IMG/VR virus record: IMGVR_UViG_3300010158_000034 | Length of the DNA: 64,000 bases | Direction: 5' to 3' (one strand) | Source: an uncultured virus (IMG/VR IMGVR_UViG_3300010158_000034) | Lineage: Duplodnaviria; Heunggongvirae; Uroviricota; Caudoviricetes | Part shown: one piece after another, positions 17,122 through 35,168 of the stretch | Layout of the letters: every line of letters begins with the position of its first letter | Position numbering within the stretch: the stretch's first letter is position 1 | Position numbers and translations under genes: made by a program | Notes under the pieces: model-generated | What the model was told of the DNA's origin: nothing | What the model saw: only the letters and a program-made list of their open reading frames with translations | The model's database searches: none

Positions 17122-18141
17122 ATGACCAACTTATTTAAAAAAGCAGCAGTTTTCACAGACATACATTTTGGCTTGAAAAGCAACAGCACCTTGCACAACG
17201 AGGATTGTTTGGCATTTGTCAAATGGGCCACTGCTCGGGCCCGGGCAGAAGGCTGTGAAACTTGTATTTTTACCGGTGACTGGCACAACAATCGTGCGTC
17301 GATCAATATTCTCACACTGGGCTACAGCCTACGTGCTTTGGAGCATTTGAATGAAAACTTTTCGCAAACATTCTTTATTCCCGGCAATCACGATTTATAT
17401 TATCGTGACAAGCGTGATGTACAAAGTGTGGAGTGGGCCCGACACCTGGCCAACATCCATATTTGTAACGATTGGACTACTATGGGCGATGTTACTATTG
17501 CTCCGTGGCTGGTGGGCGACGACCATAAACGATTAAAGAAGCTGTCCGGCAAGTACATGTTTGGGCATTTTGAACTGCCGGGCTACTTGATGAATGCCAT
17601 GGTGGCCATGCCGGATCACGGTGAAGTCGATCCTCGAACGGATTTGACCGGATTTGAACATGTTTATTCTGGACACTTTCATAAAAGACAAACTAGAGGC
17701 AATGTCACTTACTTGGGCAACTGTTTCCCGCACAACTATGCTGATGCCGGTGACGATGATAGAGGCCTAATGATACTGGAGTGGGATCATGAACCGGTGT
17801 ATCATGCATGGCCCGATCAGCCCAGATATCGTGTGTTTCAACTCAGTGATGTACTCAAGCACACCGAGTCCATGTTGGAACCCAATATGCATGTTAGAGT
17901 TAACCTAGACATTGATATTAGTTACGAAGAAGCCACTTTTATCAAAGAAACTTTTATAGATACGTATAAGTTACGAGAGATTACACTTATACCGGCCAAA
18001 GTGACAGAGTTGTCTGATTACGAAATAGCTGGCAATATTAATTTTGAAAGTGTGGATCAAATTGTGTTTGGACAGTTGAGCAACATCGAAAGCGAACAAT
18101 TCAATAAAAATCTGTTATTAGATATCTATAGGAATTTATAA
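17122..18141 (+). CDS. gp47: Recombination endonuclease subunit (Mre11/SbcD-like)
   Basis: Metallophosphoesterase motifs DIHFG, GDWH, GNHD, GHF and SGHFH. Confidence 0.92.
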   Translation: MTNLFKKAAVFTDIHFGLKSNSTLHNEDCLAFVKWATARARAEGCETCIFTGDWHNNRASINILTLGYSLRALEHLNENFSQTFFIPGNHDLYYRDKRDVQSVEWARHLANIHICNDWTTMGDVTIAPWLVGDDHKRLKKLSGKYMFGHFELPGYLMNAMVAMPDHGEVDPRTDLTGFEHVYSGHFHKRQTRGNVTYLGNCFPHNYADAGDDDRGLMILEWDHEPVYHAWPDQPRYRVFQLSDVLKHTESMLEPNMHVRVNLDIDISYEEATFIKETFIDTYKLREITLIPAKVTELSDYEIAGNINFESVDQIVFGQLSNIESEQFNKNLLLDIYRNL

Positions 18142-19265
18142 TGTCTGACTCTTTTTGTGTTAATCCTTGGATTAGTATGCACTATTTCATGGGCAAACAA
18201 ATTAATCCTTGCTGTTTGTTTGCAGGCGGGATAAAAACAAACAACATCAATGAATATGCCAATAGTACACAATTGGCCAACATAAAACAAAATTTACTCG
18301 ACAATAAAAAAATTAACGAATGTGCTACCTGTTGGAATCAAGAAAGTCAAGGCGGTGTCAGCAAACGCCAACAAGATAATAAAACTTACAAGAAAATATT
18401 TGATTATCAATTTAAAAATCAACTAACAGAACCCAATACCAATTTTGTTGAATACTATGTTAGGTTGGGAAATCATTGCAATATACGATGCACTACCTGT
18501 AACGATACACTAAGTACTGGCTGGATAAGTGAAAAGAAAAAATTCAATTTGCCGTCGGGTCCTGTGCTGAATATTACATCTGCAGATCCAATTTGGCAAC
18601 ACCTCAAAGACCATGCAAAGAATATAGCCAGCATAGAATTCATCGGGGGCGAACCGTTTATGATGAACATCGACGAACAACGCGATTTATTTGATTATTT
18701 TGTAAAGTCCGGCGATGCTAGACATATTAAATTAAAATACAATACAAACGGCACACGTATGCCTGCAGAACAAATAGAATTCTGGAGCAAATTTGGTGAG
18801 ATTGAGTTAAATGTTAGTATGGACGGAGTAGAGAATCAATTTGAATATTTAAGATTTCCGGCAGTATGGTCTGAATTTGATGCAAATTTAACCAAGTACA
18901 AAGAATTGGCCACGATATTACCTAATTTAAAATTAACGGTGATGCACACATTGAGTATATTTAATATTGGGTATGTGCAAAAAACTATAGATTATTGTAA
19001 AGAAAAAGAAATTGCAATATTTTTTAATATGTTACATGCTCCAACTTATTTTAATCTTTATAATTTTACAGCCGATGTGTCTGAATGGATACAAAATCAA
19101 ATCAATGAGGTTGATGATACAACTATTAAAAATATACATGACCGTTTATCAAAGGAACCAGGTTTCTCCAATTCAAAGTTTTTGAGTAAATGCCAAGAAC
19201 TTGACCGTCGTAGAGGATTAAGTATAGCAGAAACATTTCCAGAATTGTACCAATGTTTAACTTAG
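18141..19265 (+). CDS. Radical SAM protein with N-terminal twitch/SPASM-like cysteines
   Basis: CxxxCxxC as CNIRCTTC; GGEP; TNG; N-terminal FCVNPW..PCC and CATCW. Confidence 0.85.
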   Translation: MSDSFCVNPWISMHYFMGKQINPCCLFAGGIKTNNINEYANSTQLANIKQNLLDNKKINECATCWNQESQGGVSKRQQDNKTYKKIFDYQFKNQLTEPNTNFVEYYVRLGNHCNIRCTTCNDTLSTGWISEKKKFNLPSGPVLNITSADPIWQHLKDHAKNIASIEFIGGEPFMMNIDEQRDLFDYFVKSGDARHIKLKYNTNGTRMPAEQIEFWSKFGEIELNVSMDGVENQFEYLRFPAVWSEFDANLTKYKELATILPNLKLTVMHTLSIFNIGYVQKTIDYCKEKEIAIFFNMLHAPTYFNLYNFTADVSEWIQNQINEVDDTTIKNIHDRLSKEPGFSNSKFLSKCQELDRRRGLSIAETFPELYQCLT

Positions 19266-20218
19266 ATCAAATCACTACGTTAGATATTGAAACTATTAAT
19301 AATTGCAACGCTCTTTGTCCTTTATGTCTGCGAGGAGAAGGAATGACCACGAATGATCGATTGGATTGGACTCAAGTAATCAAACAAATACCCGATACTG
19401 TCTGGCAACAGGTTAAAAAAATTAATTTTAATGGCACAACAGGTGACAATCTAATGCATCCAGAAATTGCAGATATTTTGGCATGGGCCATTAACAATAC
19501 CAATGCACAGGTTATTTTACATACCAATGGTAGTTTAAGAAACACCACCTGGTGGGGCAATTTAGGAAAAGTATTTGGTACCAAGCATCGTGTGGTATTT
19601 GGTATAGACGGGTTAGAGGATACTCACAATGTGTATCGAGTAAACACAGATTGGCAAAAAATTATAGATAATGCAAAGGCTTTTATCGACGTAGGCGGCT
19701 GTGCTGTTTGGCAATTTATTATATTTGACCACAATCGGCATCAAATTGATGAGTGCAGGGCATTAAGTGAAAAATTAGGGTTCCGCAAGTTTTTACCTAT
19801 ACTTCAAGATCGATTTGATGCTACTGGGACTCAAGGCCAAATACAACGTGCAAATATCGTCGCAGTACCTGTTGATACTATCATAAAGCCAACTAGCAAT
19901 AATTTCAATAAAAAGAAGTTTACACAAGTAAAAGTTGATTGTCTGAGTCAAAAAACAGGATGGGTCAGCATATATGCAGATGGTACCATATGGCCTTGCT
20001 GTTGGTTAATGGGGTGGCACTTGGCTAAACATCAAAAAACTCAATATGCAATTATCAACTATCATTTTAAGAAAATATTAAATATTGACTTTGCACAAAT
20101 TAGTCTTTATAATAAGACGCTAGAAGAAATTATTGGCAGTGATTTGTGGCAAAAAAGATTTCCAGATAGTTTTAACAACAACCCAAACTTGGTGTGTGTA
20201 CAACAATGTTCAAAATAA
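19253..20218 (+). CDS. Radical SAM/SPASM protein
   Basis: CNALCPLC; TNG; GIDG; C-terminal IYADGTIWPCC and CVQQC. Confidence 0.85.
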   Translation: MFNLDQITTLDIETINNCNALCPLCLRGEGMTTNDRLDWTQVIKQIPDTVWQQVKKINFNGTTGDNLMHPEIADILAWAINNTNAQVILHTNGSLRNTTWWGNLGKVFGTKHRVVFGIDGLEDTHNVYRVNTDWQKIIDNAKAFIDVGGCAVWQFIIFDHNRHQIDECRALSEKLGFRKFLPILQDRFDATGTQGQIQRANIVAVPVDTIIKPTSNNFNKKKFTQVKVDCLSQKTGWVSIYADGTIWPCCWLMGWHLAKHQKTQYAIINYHFKKILNIDFAQISLYNKTLEEIIGSDLWQKRFPDSFNNNPNLVCVQQCSK

Positions 20219-21975
20219 AAGATTTAACTGTAAAAAATTTCATGAGCGTGGGCAACAGCACCCAGGCTGTAAACTTTGACCGTCAAGACTTGACCTTGGT
20301 GCTGGGTGAAAACTTGGACTTGGGTGGAGACGATTCTGGTGCTAGAAACGGCACCGGTAAGACCACCATCATCAATGCTCTCAGTTATGCCTTGTATGGC
20401 AATGCACTAACCAATATCCGTAAAGAAAACTTGATCAATAAAACCAATCAAAAAAACATGATGGTGACTGTGGATTTTGAAAAGGATGGAGAAACTTATA
20501 GAATTGAACGTGGCAGAAAACCCAATGTCATGCGTTTCTTTGTGGGAGATACAGAACGAGAAATCACCGATGATGCTCAAGGTGATTCAAGAGAAACACA
20601 AGCAGAAATAGAACGCATGTTGGGCATGAGCCACGACATGTTCAAACACATTGTAGCACTCAACACCTATACCGAACCATTTCTTGCCCTGCGTGCCAAC
20701 GATCAAAGATCTATCATCGAACAGTTGCTGGGCATTACATTACTAAGTGAAAAAGCTGATCGACTAAAAGAACAGAACAAAGCCACTCGAGATTCAATTA
20801 CGCAAGAAGAATATCGTATCAAGGCCGTGGGCGATGCCAATGTGCGTGTACAAGAACAAATTGAAAACTTAAAGCGTAGACAAACCTTATGGAAGACTCG
20901 ACATGACGCAGACATTGCCAACCTGGAGACGGCGCTCGATCAGTTACTCGAGCTTGATATCGATCAAGAGATTGGGGCACACCGGGCACTTACGGCGTAT
21001 CTTCAAAAGAAGAAAGACATCAGTGACGTACAGTCCTATCTTCGACGTTCTGCACAGGATCAAGTACGTGAAACTAAAGCTATTGAAAAACTCCAGCAAG
21101 AGATCGCATCGCTGCATGACCATCAGTGTCACACCTGTGGGCAGGAGTTCCACGACGAGCGGCATGTACAGGTCTTGGAGGCTAAACAACAGGATTTAAC
21201 TGTGGCTGAAGAAAATTTGATCACTGCTGTCAACGATGTGGCGGCATTTACCGAAGCTGTGACTACATTGGGCGAACTGGGCTCGGCACCTGCTACGTTT
21301 TATGATCAAGAACAAGATGCTGTGCAACACAGAGCCAGCGTGGCCAGTTTGCAACAACAGTTAGCCGTGAAAAGCGAGGAAGACGATCCTTATCGTGATC
21401 AAATTGCAGAAATGCAAAGTCAAGGCATTGAGGAAATTAGTTATGATGCTATCAACACCCTGACCAATGTGCGAGAACATCAAGAGTTTCTGTTAAAGTT
21501 ATTGACTAATAAAGATTCGTTTATTCGCAAACGTATCATTGATCAAAATCTAAGTTACTTAAATGCTAGACTGGGACAATATCTAGACCGTATTGGTTTA
21601 CCGCACACTGTGAAATTCCTTAACGACCTAACTGTAAGCATCACTGAACTGGGAAGAGATCTAGACTTTGACAACTTGAGCCGTGGCGAGCGTAATCGTT
21701 TAATACTTTCCTTGAGCTGGAGTTTCCGCGATGTGTGGGAAAGTTTATATCAACCCATCAACTTGTTGTTTATAGACGAGTTGATTGATTCCGGGCTTGA
21801 CTCATCGGGAGTTGAAAACAGCTTGGCTATTCTTAAAAAAATGTCCAGGGAAGGTAATAAATCAATTTGGCTGGTAAGTCACAAGGATGAACTGGTTGGT
21901 AGGGTCAACAACACTCTTAAAGTAGTTAAAGAACACGGCTATACCACTTACAACACGGATGTAGAAATTGTATAA
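20206..21975 (+). CDS. gp46: Recombination ATPase subunit (Rad50/SbcC-like)
   Basis: Walker A NGTGKTT, zinc hook CHTC, signature LSRGE, Walker B LFIDE and H-loop VSH; start refined to the ATG at 20206 (MFKIKDL). Confidence 0.92.
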   Translation: MFKIKDLTVKNFMSVGNSTQAVNFDRQDLTLVLGENLDLGGDDSGARNGTGKTTIINALSYALYGNALTNIRKENLINKTNQKNMMVTVDFEKDGETYRIERGRKPNVMRFFVGDTEREITDDAQGDSRETQAEIERMLGMSHDMFKHIVALNTYTEPFLALRANDQRSIIEQLLGITLLSEKADRLKEQNKATRDSITQEEYRIKAVGDANVRVQEQIENLKRRQTLWKTRHDADIANLETALDQLLELDIDQEIGAHRALTAYLQKKKDISDVQSYLRRSAQDQVRETKAIEKLQQEIASLHDHQCHTCGQEFHDERHVQVLEAKQQDLTVAEENLITAVNDVAAFTEAVTTLGELGSAPATFYDQEQDAVQHRASVASLQQQLAVKSEEDDPYRDQIAEMQSQGIEEISYDAINTLTNVREHQEFLLKLLTNKDSFIRKRIIDQNLSYLNARLGQYLDRIGLPHTVKFLNDLTVSITELGRDLDFDNLSRGERNRLILSLSWSFRDVWESLYQPINLLFIDELIDSGLDSSGVENSLAILKKMSREGNKSIWLVSHKDELVGRVNNTLKVVKEHGYTTYNTDVEIV

Positions 21976-22804
21976 GGTCTTGCACATCGAACCCACTGAT
22001 GTTTGTCACGCCACTTGCGCCTTGTGTGCTAGAGAAACCGATTCAAATTTTGATAAAAATAAAAAACATCATTTGTCTGTGGATCGAATCAAAGATAAAT
22101 TTGACACTGAATTTATAAAAAATCTAGACAAAATGTTCATGTGTGGCAACTACGGCGACCCAGCTGCTGGAAAACATACTTTAGAAATATACGATTACTT
22201 TAGATCCGTTAATACTGAAATTACACTAGGCATGAATACCAATGGTGGCATTCGCGAATCTTGGTGGTGGACTCAAATTGGATCAATATTCAATCAACCG
22301 CGGGACTATGTTGTATTCAGCATCGACGGACTAGAAGACACCAATCGTATATATAGAAAAGGTGTAAGTTGGAATGTTATTATGGCCAATGCTCAAGCAT
22401 TTATTGTTGCAGGTGGCTCAGCACATTGGGACATGTTGGTGTATCGGCATAACGAACATCAAGTTGATGCTTGTGAACAACTGGCACGTGACATGGGATT
22501 CAAATGGTTTAGAGCCAAAGTGAGTCGACGTCCGCTGGCCAATGGATTAGAGTATCCCATCAAATGGCAATCACCTTTAGAAAAAACTGGTACTGTAGAG
22601 TGTTTTGCGTTAAACGAACAAAGTATATACATAGATGCTCAAGGTCGTGTTAGCCCGTGTTGTTGGCTAGGTTCTAGACAACAGGATTTTGATTTTAAAG
22701 GGGTTGCCACTGCATCAAATCCTGTATGCCGTGCAACATGTAGCACCCATAGTAAAAAAACTACATTTACTGCACAATGGCAACGTGAGGTTGAACTATG
22801 CTAG
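21968..22804 (+). CDS. Radical SAM/SPASM protein
   Basis: CHATCALC; GNYGDP; SIDG; IDAQGRVSPCC and CRATC. Confidence 0.85.
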   Translation: MYKVLHIEPTDVCHATCALCARETDSNFDKNKKHHLSVDRIKDKFDTEFIKNLDKMFMCGNYGDPAAGKHTLEIYDYFRSVNTEITLGMNTNGGIRESWWWTQIGSIFNQPRDYVVFSIDGLEDTNRIYRKGVSWNVIMANAQAFIVAGGSAHWDMLVYRHNEHQVDACEQLARDMGFKWFRAKVSRRPLANGLEYPIKWQSPLEKTGTVECFALNEQSIYIDAQGRVSPCCWLGSRQQDFDFKGVATASNPVCRATCSTHSKKTTFTAQWQREVELC

Positions 22805-23802
22805 CCACCTGGCATTTTCATATCGAAATATCTAGTAAATGTACACTACGTTGTCCTAGATGTGCTAGACAAGAAGTTCCCGACACACTGGTCAATACTG
22901 AACTGGATTTAGAATTCTTTAAACGTAACTTTACAGCAGAATTTATTATAAACAATGTAGAAAAGATCACCTTCTGCGGCGACGACGGAGATCCTGTATA
23001 TGCACATGACTTGATTTCTGTAATACATTATGTTAAAAGTGTCAAACCGGTGGAGTTTGTCATCATTACAAACGGTAGCTATAAGCGAGCAGAATGGTGG
23101 GCAGAGCTGGGTGCTATGCTAACAGAAAAAGACACTGTACACTTTAGTATAGATGGATGGGACAATGCCAGTAATAATTTATATCGTGTAAACAGCGATT
23201 TCAACAGCATTACCCAGGGCATAACAGCATTGAGAACCGCTAGCCAATGTCGCTTGATATGGGCCGCTATAGCATTTAAGTTTAACCAAGAATATCTAGG
23301 ACAAATGAAAAACTATGCTGCTGCATTGGGGATGGATGCGTTTCAATTGACCAAAAGTACCAAATTTGGCAGTGTATATCCCAGTTACGGTGCTAACGAT
23401 CCGTTAGAACCCAGTGATAAATTTGTCAGCAACACACTTAGATTTGAACGAGAGCAAATCGATTTTACCAATCGAGCACCTGTCACGCACCCAATTAATT
23501 TTGAATTATATACTCAGAATCAAGATAGAACACCGGTGGTACCTTTGTGCGAAATAGGTAATAAAGGATTATACATAGATGCTCGCGGTAGATTATTTCC
23601 GTGCTGTTGGGTAGCTAATAGGTATAACCACAATCAAGAATGGCAAACATTAGCAGAACAGTTCGATTTACACCACCGTACATTAACAGAGGCTTTATCC
23701 AGCAGTTTTTGGAGAGAAGAATTTCAAACATTCAAGTGGCAAGAATGCCAAACAAAATGTTCCGCAAGGGTCGTAAATCAAGATTATGCGACACAGTGGT
23801 GA
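22798..23802 (+). CDS. Radical SAM/SPASM protein
   Basis: CTLRCPRC; GDDGDP; SIDG; IDARGRLFPCC and CQTKC. Confidence 0.85.
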   Translation: MLATWHFHIEISSKCTLRCPRCARQEVPDTLVNTELDLEFFKRNFTAEFIINNVEKITFCGDDGDPVYAHDLISVIHYVKSVKPVEFVIITNGSYKRAEWWAELGAMLTEKDTVHFSIDGWDNASNNLYRVNSDFNSITQGITALRTASQCRLIWAAIAFKFNQEYLGQMKNYAAALGMDAFQLTKSTKFGSVYPSYGANDPLEPSDKFVSNTLRFEREQIDFTNRAPVTHPINFELYTQNQDRTPVVPLCEIGNKGLYIDARGRLFPCCWVANRYNHNQEWQTLAEQFDLHHRTLTEALSSSFWREEFQTFKWQECQTKCSARVVNQDYATQW

Positions 23803-23821
23803 TCGATGATAACTACTATGC

Positions 23822-24274
23822 ATGACATGGCTATTCAAAAACTCTCTTGTAGAAACCTTACCCGAAGACTGTGTTGGATTTGTATATCTTATAACAAATT
23901 TAACTACAGGCAGGAGATATATTGGCAAAAAATTAGCCAAGTTTGCAAAAACAACTTACAAGACAGTGAAATTAAAAAACGGCACCAAGCGAAAGAAAAA
24001 GATTAGAAGTAAGATCGATAGTGACTGGCAATCATATTACGGATCAAACGCAGAACTAAATGCAGACGTGGAGAAATTAGGCGTTGACAATTTTTCAAGA
24101 GAAATACTATACTACTGCAACAGTAAAGCTGAATGCAGTTACATAGAAGCAAGAGAACAATTCAGACACCAAGTCTTGGAATCAGACAATTACTACAATG
24201 GCCAAATAGCCTGTAGAATCCATGGCTCTCATATTAAAAATAAAATAGACACCCGGTCGACAGTAACAAACTAG
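23822..24274 (+). CDS. GIY-YIG endonuclease, T4 EndoII (DenA)-like
   Basis: GFVY...YIG, YYGS, conserved Glu (YIE) and YYN motifs; 150-aa single domain with a Lys-rich insert. Confidence 0.8.
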   Translation: MTWLFKNSLVETLPEDCVGFVYLITNLTTGRRYIGKKLAKFAKTTYKTVKLKNGTKRKKKIRSKIDSDWQSYYGSNAELNADVEKLGVDNFSREILYYCNSKAECSYIEAREQFRHQVLESDNYYNGQIACRIHGSHIKNKIDTRSTVTN

Positions 24275-24660
24275 CACAGGTTAAACTCGTGTGCCTATGA
24301 CAACCGGATAATAACGGGGACGGAAGACTCTTGCTGTCAAGAGCACTCAATCAGTATCCTTGACAGGACCATGATCGGATATGCCTATAACCGGTTTGAT
24401 TGTTTGAAAAGTAGTAGGAACAGGCTAAAAGAGTGGGTAATGCCCACACGTGGTTAAATGTGTTAGCGTATGTTTAACCGCCGCCGTTGTATAAAGACAG
24501 AACGAGCAGGTACCGGACAACCGCCTGTGTGTACGCAAGTACGTAGTTCTAACGCTAAGTGACTGGTTCAACTCGGATGAAGCAGATCATTTTTGCCCTT
24601 GAGCGGGCAAAGTGTGACCAAAGAATCTGGATGAAACGGGAAGCAAACTGCTTTCGTTAA
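24272..24660 (+). ncRNA. Candidate large structured non-coding RNA, class unassigned
   Basis: No ORF of 60 aa or more in the track; more than 10 helices found by hand, including long-range pairs, G-U wobbles that favour the + strand, a GCAA tetraloop, and a 7-bp loop pseudoknot (24463-24469 with 24552-24558). Confidence 0.65.
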
Positions 24661-24664
24661 TAAT

Positions 24665-24718
24665 AAAAAAAAAGATTTCTGAACGAAGTGAAAGAAATAG
24701 ATTAGCTCTGCTAATCTC
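24665..24718 (-). terminator. Putative rho-independent terminator for the gp26/gp51-like transcript
   Basis: On the minus strand, two hairpins (AGATTAGC/GCTAATCT and ATTTCT/AGAAAT) are followed by a run of 9 T. Confidence 0.55.
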
Positions 24719-24739: not shown

Positions 24740-24967
24740 TCAAAAGAATGGCATACCCGATTTGTTTGTGACTTCCATGTTTTCTTTTATCAGTTTGGCT
24801 ATCAACTGTCGTTCTTCTGTACTCAGTTCCATGGCTTCGCTGTAAGTGAGACCGCCACGCATGTACCAACAAAAACTAAACAACTCGGCTTTCAAGGCTT
24901 TTGACTCCTGCTCCATTTGATCCAACCACTTGAAAACTTCTTCAGTGGTTAGAGTCAAAAGCCTCAT
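24740..24967 (-). CDS. gp51-like baseplate hub assembly / tail chaperone C-terminal ORF
   Basis: WYMRGGLTYSEAMELSTEER motif; ATGA overlap with the upstream gene, and in its -1 frame. Confidence 0.65.
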   Translation of the reverse strand: MRLLTLTTEEVFKWLDQMEQESKALKAELFSFCWYMRGGLTYSEAMELSTEERQLIAKLIKENMEVTNKSGMPFF

Positions 24968-25806
24968 TCGAAAAAATTTGATTGATTGAATGTTAGAGTA
25001 TTTTCAAATTCTTTTTGACAACTGTTGCACACAATCTTCAAAGGTTGTACTTTGAATGTATCCACTAGCGACTGTATGTGGTCCTTGATTTGATTGTAAA
25101 CCTGTCGGCTGCATTGATCTAAAAACTCAGTGATTTGAGCACGATCTTTAACTACAACTCCAGTTTCGGTTTCTATGCTGTTGATGCTTACAACAACTGA
25201 GTCTATGTTCATTTGTCGCAACTTTTCAAAGCTGGCGTTGAATTGGGCTGTTTTTTCTTCCTGTGACAAAGACTCGTTAAGTATCACTGAATCCACCAAT
25301 CTCTGCTCTTCGTAGGTTATGAGTCCTGCTTGATTTATATCTTGATAGGTTTGTGGGCGGAAATGAAATTGCAATCCATCAATAGTAACCGGAGACGAAT
25401 AGTCTGCTGTTTCCAGTCCATCCAGCACGCCTGTCAAATCCACTGTGTATTCATCCTGTACCCGGCAGTGAGCACAGGTGCAGTTGATGTCCATGCCCTT
25501 GCCGTAGCTGGCCAAACGTATGGCAATAAAAACGGGATCCAAATCCACTGCTGGCATGGTCCACGGATCGCGAATGTTTGGGCAGCAACTTTTAATAACA
25601 TTGATTATTCCCTCCCCGTTCATTAGTGCATCTGGAGTTTTCATTGTTAACTCGTCACGCACAGTCATAGGATACACGGGAATTTCCCCGGTCACCGGTA
25701 GGTCTATAGTGTTGTCGGGGTAAAAACGTCCGCGACTGGGTAGTTTTAAATAAATTGCTGGTTGTCTAAAATGTCCGGATAAGGGATTGTTAGCGGGGTT
25801 TGCCAT
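24964..25806 (-). CDS. gp26-like baseplate hub / tail assembly chaperone
   Basis: LKLPSRG, PMTVRDE, IRLASYG, two CxxC pairs and a C-terminal NFF. Confidence 0.7.
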   Translation of the reverse strand: MANPANNPLSGHFRQPAIYLKLPSRGRFYPDNTIDLPVTGEIPVYPMTVRDELTMKTPDALMNGEGIINVIKSCCPNIRDPWTMPAVDLDPVFIAIRLASYGKGMDINCTCAHCRVQDEYTVDLTGVLDGLETADYSSPVTIDGLQFHFRPQTYQDINQAGLITYEEQRLVDSVILNESLSQEEKTAQFNASFEKLRQMNIDSVVVSINSIETETGVVVKDRAQITEFLDQCSRQVYNQIKDHIQSLVDTFKVQPLKIVCNSCQKEFENTLTFNQSNFFE

Positions 25807-34309: not shown

Positions 34310-34403
34310 TAAATATTCATGTTCACTCGCTGAGAGAGACTCTCGGAGCACCACTTCGGGCGGCCTAGAACGCTAACGCCCTGAAGGGCAAAGGAGAAAC
34401 AAA
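34310..34403 (+). promoter_or_regulatory. Late promoter followed by a GC-rich structured 5' leader
   Basis: TAAATA at 34310-34315, then hairpins CTGAGAG/CTCTCGG, cTTCGg and GCCC-TGAA-GGGC directly before AAGGAG. Confidence 0.55.
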
Positions 34404-35168
34404 ATGGCAAAATTAAAAATTTCAACAACAACTTCGGTATCATCAGTAAACTATCCACAAGCTCAAACGGATAGATTTGTCACACCAACCCAGGTCAACG
34501 GTAATCGCATCGGCGGCGTGGGTGGTGTCACCAGTCAGGTCGGCTTACAGATCAAGCCCACAGTGTTTGTCACTGGCGGCAGTGCCTTACCCGGCAGTAT
34601 TACATCACAAAAAGGGGCTCACAAGTTTCGTGTGAGTGATGGCACTAGAACAGGTGTATGCAAGTTGGTAAACAGTACAACACTAGCGGCAGGTCAAATG
34701 AACTTATGGGCAAACATCTGTGTTATTCCCAGTGCAAACATAGCAGCAGCCAACATTGCCGGCAATGCCACACAAACTTGGGTGTCATGGACCACAGGTA
34801 CAACCATTGGTCCAGTGGCAACGCCACGTGTGGGCGACTATATTCTTGGATTCACCAGTGCCAACATTGGCGTATACGGTGCACAAGTTACTGCTGTAGT
34901 TTCCACTACCAACGTGGCTGTGGCTGTTACTGGTAATGTTTCCTCTTCTACTTTTGTGCTGGCCAACACCATGACATTAGTAAGTAGAATTGACAACAAG
35001 TATATACATGACTTCACCACTAATGGTACCCGTGACAGCACAGACGGTACAGTGACCTATTACACCAACGGTTTCAATCCAACTAGATTCCGTTATGTGT
35101 TGGGTGGAAATGCTGTGTCGGCATCAGCCACAATAACATCGGGATTTGCCAGAGTAATCAGCGGTTAA
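34404..35168 (+). CDS. Putative virion (head decoration-like) protein
   Basis: Strong Shine-Dalgarno sequence and late promoter; directly after the major capsid gene; Thr/Val/Gly-rich with QKGAHKFRV. Confidence 0.55.
   Translation: MAKLKISTTTSVSSVNYPQAQTDRFVTPTQVNGNRIGGVGGVTSQVGLQIKPTVFVTGGSALPGSITSQKGAHKFRVSDGTRTGVCKLVNSTTLAAGQMNLWANICVIPSANIAAANIAGNATQTWVSWTTGTTIGPVATPRVGDYILGFTSANIGVYGAQVTAVVSTTNVAVAVTGNVSSSTFVLANTMTLVSRIDNKYIHDFTTNGTRDSTDGTVTYYTNGFNPTRFRYVLGGNAVSASATITSGFARVISG

What the first reader, a model, noticed from the sequence alone, without database searches (positions are those of the whole stretch)
24272..24660. Unassigned ~390-nt pseudoknotted RNA starting at the stop codon of a GIY-YIG nuclease gene
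This is the largest ORF-free gap in a very gene-dense window, and nearly all of it can base-pair. Helices found by hand: GCACA/TGTGC (24274-24294); long-range AACCGG (24302-07) with CTGGTT (24563-68); ATAACGG (24311-17) with CCGTTGT (24484-90), closing a ~180-nt domain; CTCTTG/CAAGAG (24328-43); a three-way junction of CAATCA/TGATTG (24348-24402), TCCT/AGGA and GATCGG/CCGGTT; GTGGGT/GCCCAC (24433-47); a long TGGTTAAATGTG/TATGTTTAACCG stem whose loop region TTAGCGT (24463-69) is exactly complementary to ACGCTAA (24552-58), giving a pseudoknot; AGAAC/GTTCT enclosing GCAGG/CCTGT and a GTAC-GCAA-GTAC GNRA hairpin; CAGAT/ATCTG enclosing TTTGCCC/GGGCAAA; and a 3' hairpin (24635-58). Many G-U pairs work only on the + strand, which points to an RNA rather than a DNA cruciform. 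I could not match it by eye to tmRNA, RNase P, group I/II introns or small ribozymes. Inference: it may be a new class of large phage ncRNA (ribozyme, RNP scaffold, or R-loop origin RNA).
Basis: partly seen in the sequence, partly recalled or inferred. Interest (0 to 1): 0.88.

Follow-up and report, generated by a model that had tools for sequence, protein, structure and literature searches.

The report
Knotted phage RNA, likely replication primer
This gap in a giant freshwater phage holds a real, heavily knotted RNA whose front end was already catalogued without a function, and its tail looks built to grab its own DNA template and start genome copying, an idea that can be tested in related phages grown in the lab.

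Summary
Real RNA, partly known, with a new mechanistic clue. The scan has met this family on other DNA before, function unassigned. New here: two 7-nt direct repeats (24575-81, 24629-35) are identical to each other in 210 of 210 loci although ten variants occur, and no RNA column is complementary to them. Downstream lie an A-tract and DNA-type C(GNA)G hairpins. A probably homologous unit (synteny and topology; my covariance model did not detect it) sits in the same slot of cultured RaK2/GAP32-like phages, in 4-5 evenly spaced, co-oriented copies, each with promoter, matched repeats and such hairpins. Best reading (about 0.5, inferred): a ColE1-RNA-II-like primer RNA whose first repeat captures the template strand at the second repeat, forming an R-loop replication origin. 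Against: no skew switch, no direct assay, and the repeat core is mostly shared within a genome, which also fits a protein. The GIY-YIG gene is a neighbour, not an obligate partner.

The parts
23822..24274 (+). SegE-type GIY-YIG nuclease gene (150 aa); usual upstream neighbour, probably the source of read-through transcription, not an obligate partner
   Evidence: Pfam PF19835, E 2e-33; within about 1 kb upstream in 122 of 128 motif-found loci, adjacent in 105; one RNA-run contig spans 24111-24414
24260..24635 (+). Structured RNA body, about 375 nt, full-length Polynucleobacter-1 RNA
   Evidence: Covariation in 126 homologues
24269..24405 (+). Part covered by Rfam RF01718
   Evidence: 92.3 bits against gathering 37, model positions 1-141 of 141
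24260..24337 (+). Pseudoknot 0: 5' ACAG (24260-63) with loop CTGT (24334-37)
   Evidence: Pairs 24260/24337 and 24262/24335 above the null; 82% canonical, 4 of 4 pairs compensated
24270..24294 (+). Pseudoknot 1, H-type: 24270-72/24279-81 crossing 24274-78/24290-94
   Evidence: 24270/24281 GC85:AT26; 94% and 98% canonical
24383..24425 (+). Pseudoknot 2: loop GCCT (24383-86) with AGGC (24422-25); the weakest of the five
   Evidence: 24384/24424 and 24386/24422 above the null; 75% canonical
24463..24558 (+).
   Evidence: 97% canonical, 7 of 7 pairs compensated; SS_cons_1 line
24487..24520 (+). Pseudoknot 4: TTGT (24487-90) with loop ACAA (24517-20); also seen in the RaK2-like RNAs
   Evidence: 99% canonical, 3 of 4 pairs compensated; matching changes in cultured phages
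24575..24581 (+). Direct repeat copy 1 (GGATGAA), without an RNA partner; proposed self-targeting guide (inferred)
   Evidence: Identical to copy 2 in 210 of 210 loci; its best covarying column is copy 2
24592..24611 (+). Conserved CCC/GGG hairpin between the repeats, preceded by a T-run
   Evidence: 97% canonical; counterpart in cultured phages
24629..24635 (+). Direct repeat copy 2 (GGATGAA) after AATCT; proposed site where the template strand is captured (inferred)
   Evidence: spacing 47-61 nt in 206 of 210 loci, no triplet or helical phase
24657..24673 (+). A/T-rich tract, candidate unwinding element
   Evidence: Sequence; median A-run of 5 and 60-70% A+T across homologues, so only modestly AT-rich
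24675..24698 (+). Tail hairpin 1: stem, TGA/GAA tandem G-A, AC-GAA-GT mini-hairpin; DNA-type loop
   Evidence: Of 159 loops: GNRA 51, GNYA 37, GNA 35, GNNNA 5, other 31; AC/GT 99% canonical
24699..24717 (+). Tail hairpin 2; usually C(GNA)G-looped in homologues but TCT here; may double as terminator of the convergent gp51 transcript
   Evidence: 98% canonical, G-U 5 vs A-C 9; loop census; terminator-like on the - strand
24740..25806 (-). Convergent gp51-like and gp26-like genes marking the syntenic slot
   Evidence: PF12322 for the gp26-like protein; same slot in GAP32, Paride and Phosso

Best explanation
The element is an R-loop replication origin with a folded primer RNA, working like ColE1 RNA II. 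Steps: (1) The + strand is transcribed (shown weakly here; shown for one paralogue in PA5oct). (2) The RNA folds into a five-pseudoknot body (shown by covariation). (3) The body presents repeat copy 1 unpaired; as the polymerase passes copy 2, copy 1 pairs with the template strand there and stops the DNA from closing (inferred from the enforced identity of the two copies). (4) The hybrid extends into the A/T tract, and the freed DNA strands fold into C(GNA)G mini-hairpins that serve as loading or priming signals (loop type shown, role inferred). (5) RNase H or termination just past copy 2 gives the 3' end that primes DNA synthesis (inferred).
For: The 7-mers are identical in 210 of 210 distinct loci with ten variants; 7 loci that failed the pattern carry other duplicated words. 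About 40 and 26 changes of the word map on the two group trees, and RNAs 97-98% alike differ in both copies at once. No complementary RNA column exists, so the only complement in cis is the template strand. No GIY-YIG column explains the word (normalised information at most 0.16-0.36 for the three common variable positions). In 17 of 17 RaK2-like units the bipartite repeat matches within the unit, and paralogues of one genome differ (ATC/ATC against ACC/ACC in GAP32, BF, 121Q; ACG/ACG against ACC/ACC in K64-1). PA5oct has ACGCC twice in one copy and CCGCC twice in another. The words differ wholly between clades (RGATRAW, CGTCAG, CTTCAAG, TGCTTTA). C(GNA/GNNA)G hairpins, either strand, occur in 165 of 208 tails, 0.95 per 150 nt against 0.007 genome-wide, and in 15 of 17 RaK2-like tails; such loops are far more stable in DNA and occur at G4 and ssiA priming sites (PMC13037366). 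Copies are co-oriented and evenly spread: 5 in GAP32, 5 in BF, 4 in 121Q; p 0.001, 0.002, 0.026. T4 uses at least five dispersed origins, two shown to be promoter plus unwinding element (PMC3016281). In ColE1 an rG stretch of the RNA pairing with a dC stretch of the template is essential for the hybrid (PMC4412123). PA5oct ncRNA004 is one paralogue: low abundance, highest early, annotated end about 13 nt after copy 2. An RNase HI gene follows the slot in Phosso.
Against: No origin activity, R-loop or transcript end was measured. Base skew follows gene strand and shows no switch at the RNA in 3 of 3 near-complete genomes. The core hexamer is shared by all paralogues of a genome (CGTCAG in GAP32 and BF, CGTCAA in 121Q), as a trans-acting protein would also give. 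Homology to the cultured RNAs rests on synteny, topology and a descriptor written after seeing both; my covariance model gave no significant hit on them, and the descriptor missed Paride, Phosso and group 2. GAP32 and BF are relatives, so their spacing is not independent. The PA5oct 13-kb paralogue shows no clear repeat pair. No promoter is conserved just upstream in the freshwater group (7 of 114 genes at the best site). No PF00075 RNase H in 4 of 4 freshwater records. The tract after copy 2 is only modestly AT-rich, the window's own last hairpin has a TCT loop, and five pseudoknots seem more than a primer needs.
Confidence: 0.5

Rival explanations
1. A trans-acting large 'ornate' RNA or RNP scaffold (GOLLD/ROOL-like in role); the two repeats are binding sites of one dimeric phage protein, and the tail hairpins are back-to-back terminators.
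For: Elaborate conserved fold; own promoter and several copies in cultured phages; core hexamer shared within a genome; the last hairpin scores as a minus-strand terminator.
Against: Paralogue-specific matched repeats within one genome; dozens of double changes with no mismatched pair; GNA triloops are DNA-type; the one measured paralogue is rare, 0.02-0.08% of phage reads.
Confidence: 0.25
2. A co-transcriptional control device: copy 1 captures the template at copy 2 to stall, terminate or insulate transcription at the convergent junction, or to seed recombination or packaging, without being a replication origin.
For: It uses the same repeat identity; the slot lies between convergent operons and beside gp46 and resolvase genes; no skew switch.
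Against: It does not explain evenly spaced copies with their own promoters or priming-site-like hairpins.
Confidence: 0.12
3. An RNA-guided GIY-YIG nuclease (HEARO/OMEGA-like RNP) that nicks at copy 2.
For: Nuclease gene within about 1 kb upstream in 122 of 128 loci; conserved basic insertion in the protein.
Against: Other genes intervene in 17 loci; four nuclease loci lack the RNA; the family occurs in 494 phage records, and the two I opened have no large gap after it; the cultured counterparts lie beside EndoVII- or RusA-like genes or no nuclease.
Confidence: 0.07
4. A template RNA for a reverse transcriptase that jumps between the repeats (DRT2- or telomerase-like; mechanism recalled, not from a call).
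For: Template jumping needs identical direct repeats around a hairpin, as seen.
Against: No PF00078 match in 10 of 10 phage records, with the control ringing; spacing not a multiple of three.
Confidence: 0.03

Closest known systems
Polynucleobacter-1 RNA motif (Rfam RF01718; Weinberg et al. 2010, PMC2864571)
   Same: Full-model match at 92 bits; the 2010 alignment of about 280 nt has the same helices and the TTAGCGT/ACGCTAA pseudoknot.
   Different: Rfam covers 141 positions and the 2010 alignment ends at that pseudoknot. Four more pseudoknots, the repeat domain, the DNA-type tail, a second subfamily without an Rfam hit and the jumbo-phage setting are not in what I could read; the table lists it as a possible cis-regulator.
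ColE1 RNA II primer (PMC4412123, PMC5043065)
   Same: Promoter-driven non-coding RNA of some hundred bases; an RNA segment pairs with a template stretch to form a persistent hybrid; displaced strand used for helicase loading.
   Different: No sequence or Rfam likeness; the coupling word is a free 6-10-nt sequence, not a G-run; five pseudoknots; phage chromosome, up to five copies; no antisense RNA I sought; all function here is inferred.
T4 oriF/oriG R-loop origins (PMC3016281)
   Same: T4-like phage, several dispersed sites, promoter followed by an A+T-rich stretch.
   Different: T4 R-loops need no specific sequence and T4 origins share no motif; here a conserved RNA fold, matched repeats and mini-hairpins recur at every copy.
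Large ornate phage RNAs (ROOL, GOLLD, OLE) and HEARO
   Same: Size, many pseudoknots, phage location, a nuclease gene nearby.
   Different: No Rfam match; low abundance of the one measured paralogue; cis-matched repeats and a DNA-type tail.

Membership tests
Polynucleobacter-1 (RF01718) | Score above the gathering threshold over the whole model | tested here: met
   92.3 against 37 bits, positions 1-141
Polynucleobacter-1 (RF01718) | Helices and pseudoknot of the 2010 alignment | tested here: met
   SS_cons and SS_cons_1
ColE1-type RNA II origin | Promoter some hundred bases upstream driving a non-coding RNA | tested here: inconclusive
   Extended -10 motif before 15 of 15 anchored RaK2-like copies; not conserved in the freshwater group
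ColE1-type RNA II origin | rG stretch pairing with a dC stretch of the template | tested here: not met
   The repeat is RGATRAW, not a G-run; it is an analogue only
ColE1-type RNA II origin | Persistent RNA-DNA hybrid, RNase H cut, priming | not testable with these tools
   Needs bench work
ColE1-type RNA II origin | Antisense RNA I | not tested
   No stranded reads
T4 oriF/oriG-type origin | Promoter plus downstream A+T-rich unwinding element | tested here: inconclusive
   A-tract present, 60-70% A+T only
T4 oriF/oriG-type origin | Shift in compositional bias at the site | tested here: inconclusive
   Skew tracks gene strand; the RNA lies within about 5-10 kb of a strand switch in 3 of 3 syntenic genomes
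T4 oriF/oriG-type origin | MotA-dependent middle promoter | not tested
   No MotA box search was run
ROOL / GOLLD / OLE / HEARO / RNase P / group I and II introns / small ribozymes | Match to the family covariance model | tested here: not met
   Only RF01718 at this place among 4227 families, E up to 1
tmRNA | tRNA-like domain and tag frame | tested here: not met
   ARAGORN 0 genes; no Rfam hit
HEARO/OMEGA-type nuclease RNA | Obligate link of RNA and nuclease | tested here: not met
   Each occurs apart from the other
Retron / DRT ncRNA | Reverse transcriptase gene alongside | tested here: not met
   0 of 5 and 0 of 5 records

The most novel reading that the evidence does not exclude
RaK2/GAP32/PA5oct-type jumbo phages and their freshwater relatives define their replication origins by a multiply pseudoknotted RNA that carries a short, freely changeable guide for its own template strand: a self-targeting, reprogrammable R-loop origin, repeated evenly round the genome and captured by small chromosomal islands to replicate when a jumbo phage infects.
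Probability: 0.4. Interest if true: 0.92.

Novelty: new variant of a known kind. Interest (0 to 1): 0.77.

Why it matters
How this jumbo-phage clade starts replication was not found in the papers searched, and Polynucleobacter-1 has been an orphan motif since 2010. The matched repeat gives a sharp genetic test (break one copy, rescue with the other) in cultured phages of E. coli and Pseudomonas. The T4 review lists the rules of R-loop formation at origins as open, and the trigger of the ColE1 hybrid is called speculative; a natural family with hundreds of co-evolved repeat pairs would make both testable. Even if the origin reading fails, a direct repeat held identical through dozens of changes needs an unusual mechanism.

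Tried and rejected
Single-sequence folding z-scores were not significant. Motif scan of bacterial genomes: 0 of 121 matches confirmed by profile, so chance hits. blastn of the RNA against cultured phages: no match. RNA runs: two lake metatranscriptomes, contigs only, depth under 6, share 0.32 and 0.21; they cannot rank expression or give ends or strand. Skew analysis gave no origin signal. Covariance model of the freshwater core against cultured loci: no real hit; one copy in each of 3 near-complete freshwater genomes. Repeat word against GIY-YIG residues: no link. The sigma-70-like site at 24084-24113 is not conserved. Reverse transcriptase: absent. EndoVII family search was uninformative, nothing rang; tblastn found no GAP32, Paride or Phosso resolvase relative in the freshwater genomes. 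No solved structure matches the nuclease by sequence; it was not folded. A pattern for the short 2010 variants found nothing in viral contigs, and the Polynucleobacter chromosomal copy was not examined. Atu_ph07 showed no recognisable unit near its portal gene. Considered and set aside by reasoning: gene-60-like ribosome bypass (both copies end in a stop codon and spacing has no frame), iterons (no helical phase), recombinase cores (47-61 nt is too short to excise), parallel homo-pair duplex (not excluded, no precedent known to me in RNA). Literature searches that found no description of the full RNA or of an origin here; the library lacks most subscription papers, and supplements S1, S3 and S7 of the 2010 paper could not be read and may discuss the motif.

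Full report
Observation. The gap after the GIY-YIG gene (23822-24274, PF19835) is free of ORFs of 50 aa or more up to 24567. Folding of the single sequence is unremarkable (z -1.63). Rfam gives one real hit in the window: Polynucleobacter-1, 24269-24405, 92 bits. Its supplements S1, S3 and S7 were unreadable. So the RNA is not unassigned.

Homologues. The nuclease found 593 relatives in viral contigs, of which 80 were fetched; 73 of 80 carry the RNA. Of the 7 misses, three contigs end early and four lie in other gene contexts. Three group-2 loci tested have no Rfam hit. Each of three near-complete genomes of 322-347 kb holds one copy. By portal protein the phage is a relative of PA5oct, Paride, Atu_ph07, Phosso and GAP32 (45-52% identity).

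Structure. G-U excess fixes the + strand. The fold begins by 24260.

The repeats. The strongest unusual signal is not complementary. Positions 24575, 24576, 24579 and 24581 covary with 24629, 24630, 24633 and 24635 by identity (scores 154, 56, 144, 152; null maximum about 49). Of 272 full-length loci, 265 fitted the pattern and reduced to 210 distinct ones; the two 7-mers are identical in 210 of 210, with ten variants. The 7 that did not fit carry other duplicated words, and four apparent mismatches are extraction errors. The word changes about 40 times on the group-1 tree and 26 times on the group-2 tree (slightly inflated by those four rows), and RNAs 97-98% alike differ in both copies. No RNA column is complementary, and no nuclease residue tracks the word in 114 loci.

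The tail. After copy 2 come an A-tract and two covarying hairpins. Of 333 tail hairpins, 107 have GNA triloops and 46 have the reverse complement; in the body the figures are 17 and 3 of 788. C(GNA/GNNA)G hairpins occur in 165 of 208 tails, about 135 times the genome background. Passages of PMC13037366 state that such loops are much more stable in DNA than RNA and occur at G4, ssiA and N4 initiation sites. I infer that the tail acts as single-stranded DNA.

Cultured relatives. The same slot between gp46 and gp51/gp26 is largely non-coding in GAP32, Phosso and Paride; the GAP32 gap is conserved in 72 phage records. Eleven of them align with an extended -10 promoter, the same order of pseudoknots 3 and 4 with compensatory changes, a repeat pair round a CCCC/GGGG hairpin and GAA-looped hairpins. 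A descriptor of pseudoknots 3 and 4 finds 120 of 152 group-1 RNAs and 12 of 13 RaK2-like loci, with 1 hit in 5 Mb of shuffled DNA, but it was written after the fact and misses group 2, Paride and Phosso; my covariance model did not detect the cultured RNAs. Homology is therefore probable, not proven. Earlier scan notes reported 4-5 copies and island copies; I confirmed 5 in GAP32, 5 in BF, 4 in 121Q and at least 2 in K64-1, all on one strand and evenly spaced, and a full unit in an integrase island at ffs in 2 of 5426 E. coli genomes. In 17 of 17 units the bipartite repeat matches inside the unit, while paralogues of one genome differ in its first triplet; the hexamer core, however, is shared within a genome. 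In PA5oct the slot RNA has two paralogues, one of which is ncRNA004 of PMC7318152 (passages and Table 1 read; supplement search empty): + strand, 0.08, 0.03 and 0.02% of phage reads, annotated end about 13 nt after its second repeat. The slot copy itself is not among that paper's four ncRNAs, and the third copy has no clear repeat pair.

Mechanism. A word that may be almost anything but must be the same at two places in cis is most simply read by base pairing, and the only complement at hand is the template strand. That is the logic of ColE1, where an RNA stretch pairing with a template stretch is essential for the persistent hybrid (passages of PMC4412123 and PMC5043065; that the RNA stretch lies far upstream of the template stretch is recalled). 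With the DNA-type tail, own promoters, low abundance and even spacing, which recalls the five or more T4 origins (passages of PMC3016281), I put an R-loop origin at about 0.5. Against it: no skew switch, no conserved promoter or RNase HI in the freshwater group, the genome-wide shared core, and no direct assay. The chief rival is a trans-acting scaffold RNA with twin protein sites (0.25).

The nuclease. It lies within about 1 kb upstream in 122 of 128 loci chosen by RNA motif, with more than 100 nt between in 17. It occurs without the RNA, and the cultured units sit beside EndoVII- or RusA-like genes. It most likely fills the nuclease slot of the recombination cluster and supplies read-through transcription; one low-depth RNA contig crosses its stop codon.

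Verdict. A true member of a catalogued orphan motif, much larger than its model, already met by this scan on other DNA without a function. In what I could search, the matched repeats, the DNA-type tail and the origin reading are not described. New variant of a known kind; interest 0.77.

Noticed in passing
window 34323-34406 (+): Weak match to Rfam freshwater-2 (33.3 bits, gathering 49.9) just before a ribosome-binding site and after a terminator-like hairpin; possibly a divergent cis-regulatory RNA.
   Followed up: no
window 24964-24990 (-): End of the gp26-like gene overlapping the gp51-like start with a T-run; earlier scan notes describe a -1 frameshift at this junction in relatives.
   Followed up: no
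window 18141-20218 and 21968-23802 (+): Radical-SAM-like genes on both sides of gp46; the two after it match PF04055.
   Followed up: no
L545 4958-15302 (E. coli NZ_AP027515.1): Island at ffs with a broken integrase, DUF4326, DUF488 and dual-OB genes and a complete phage-type RNA unit with repeats and tail; no replication gene recognised by Pfam; candidate jumbo-phage satellite.
   Followed up: partly
L027 and L028, about 400-740 nt after the nuclease stop: Only the 3' part of the profile matches; possibly a third subfamily with a different 5' domain.
   Followed up: no
L016, L018, L037, L057, L058 just after the RNA: A further gene that looks like a GIY-YIG homing endonuclease by its first residues (recalled motif) is inserted downstream of the RNA.
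   Followed up: no
window 24357 and 24369: Strict non-canonical covariation T-C against C-T (score 147), an unexplained tertiary contact.
   Followed up: no
L417: A group-2 unit with a quite different duplicated word (TGGAAA) and a divergent tail.
   Followed up: partly
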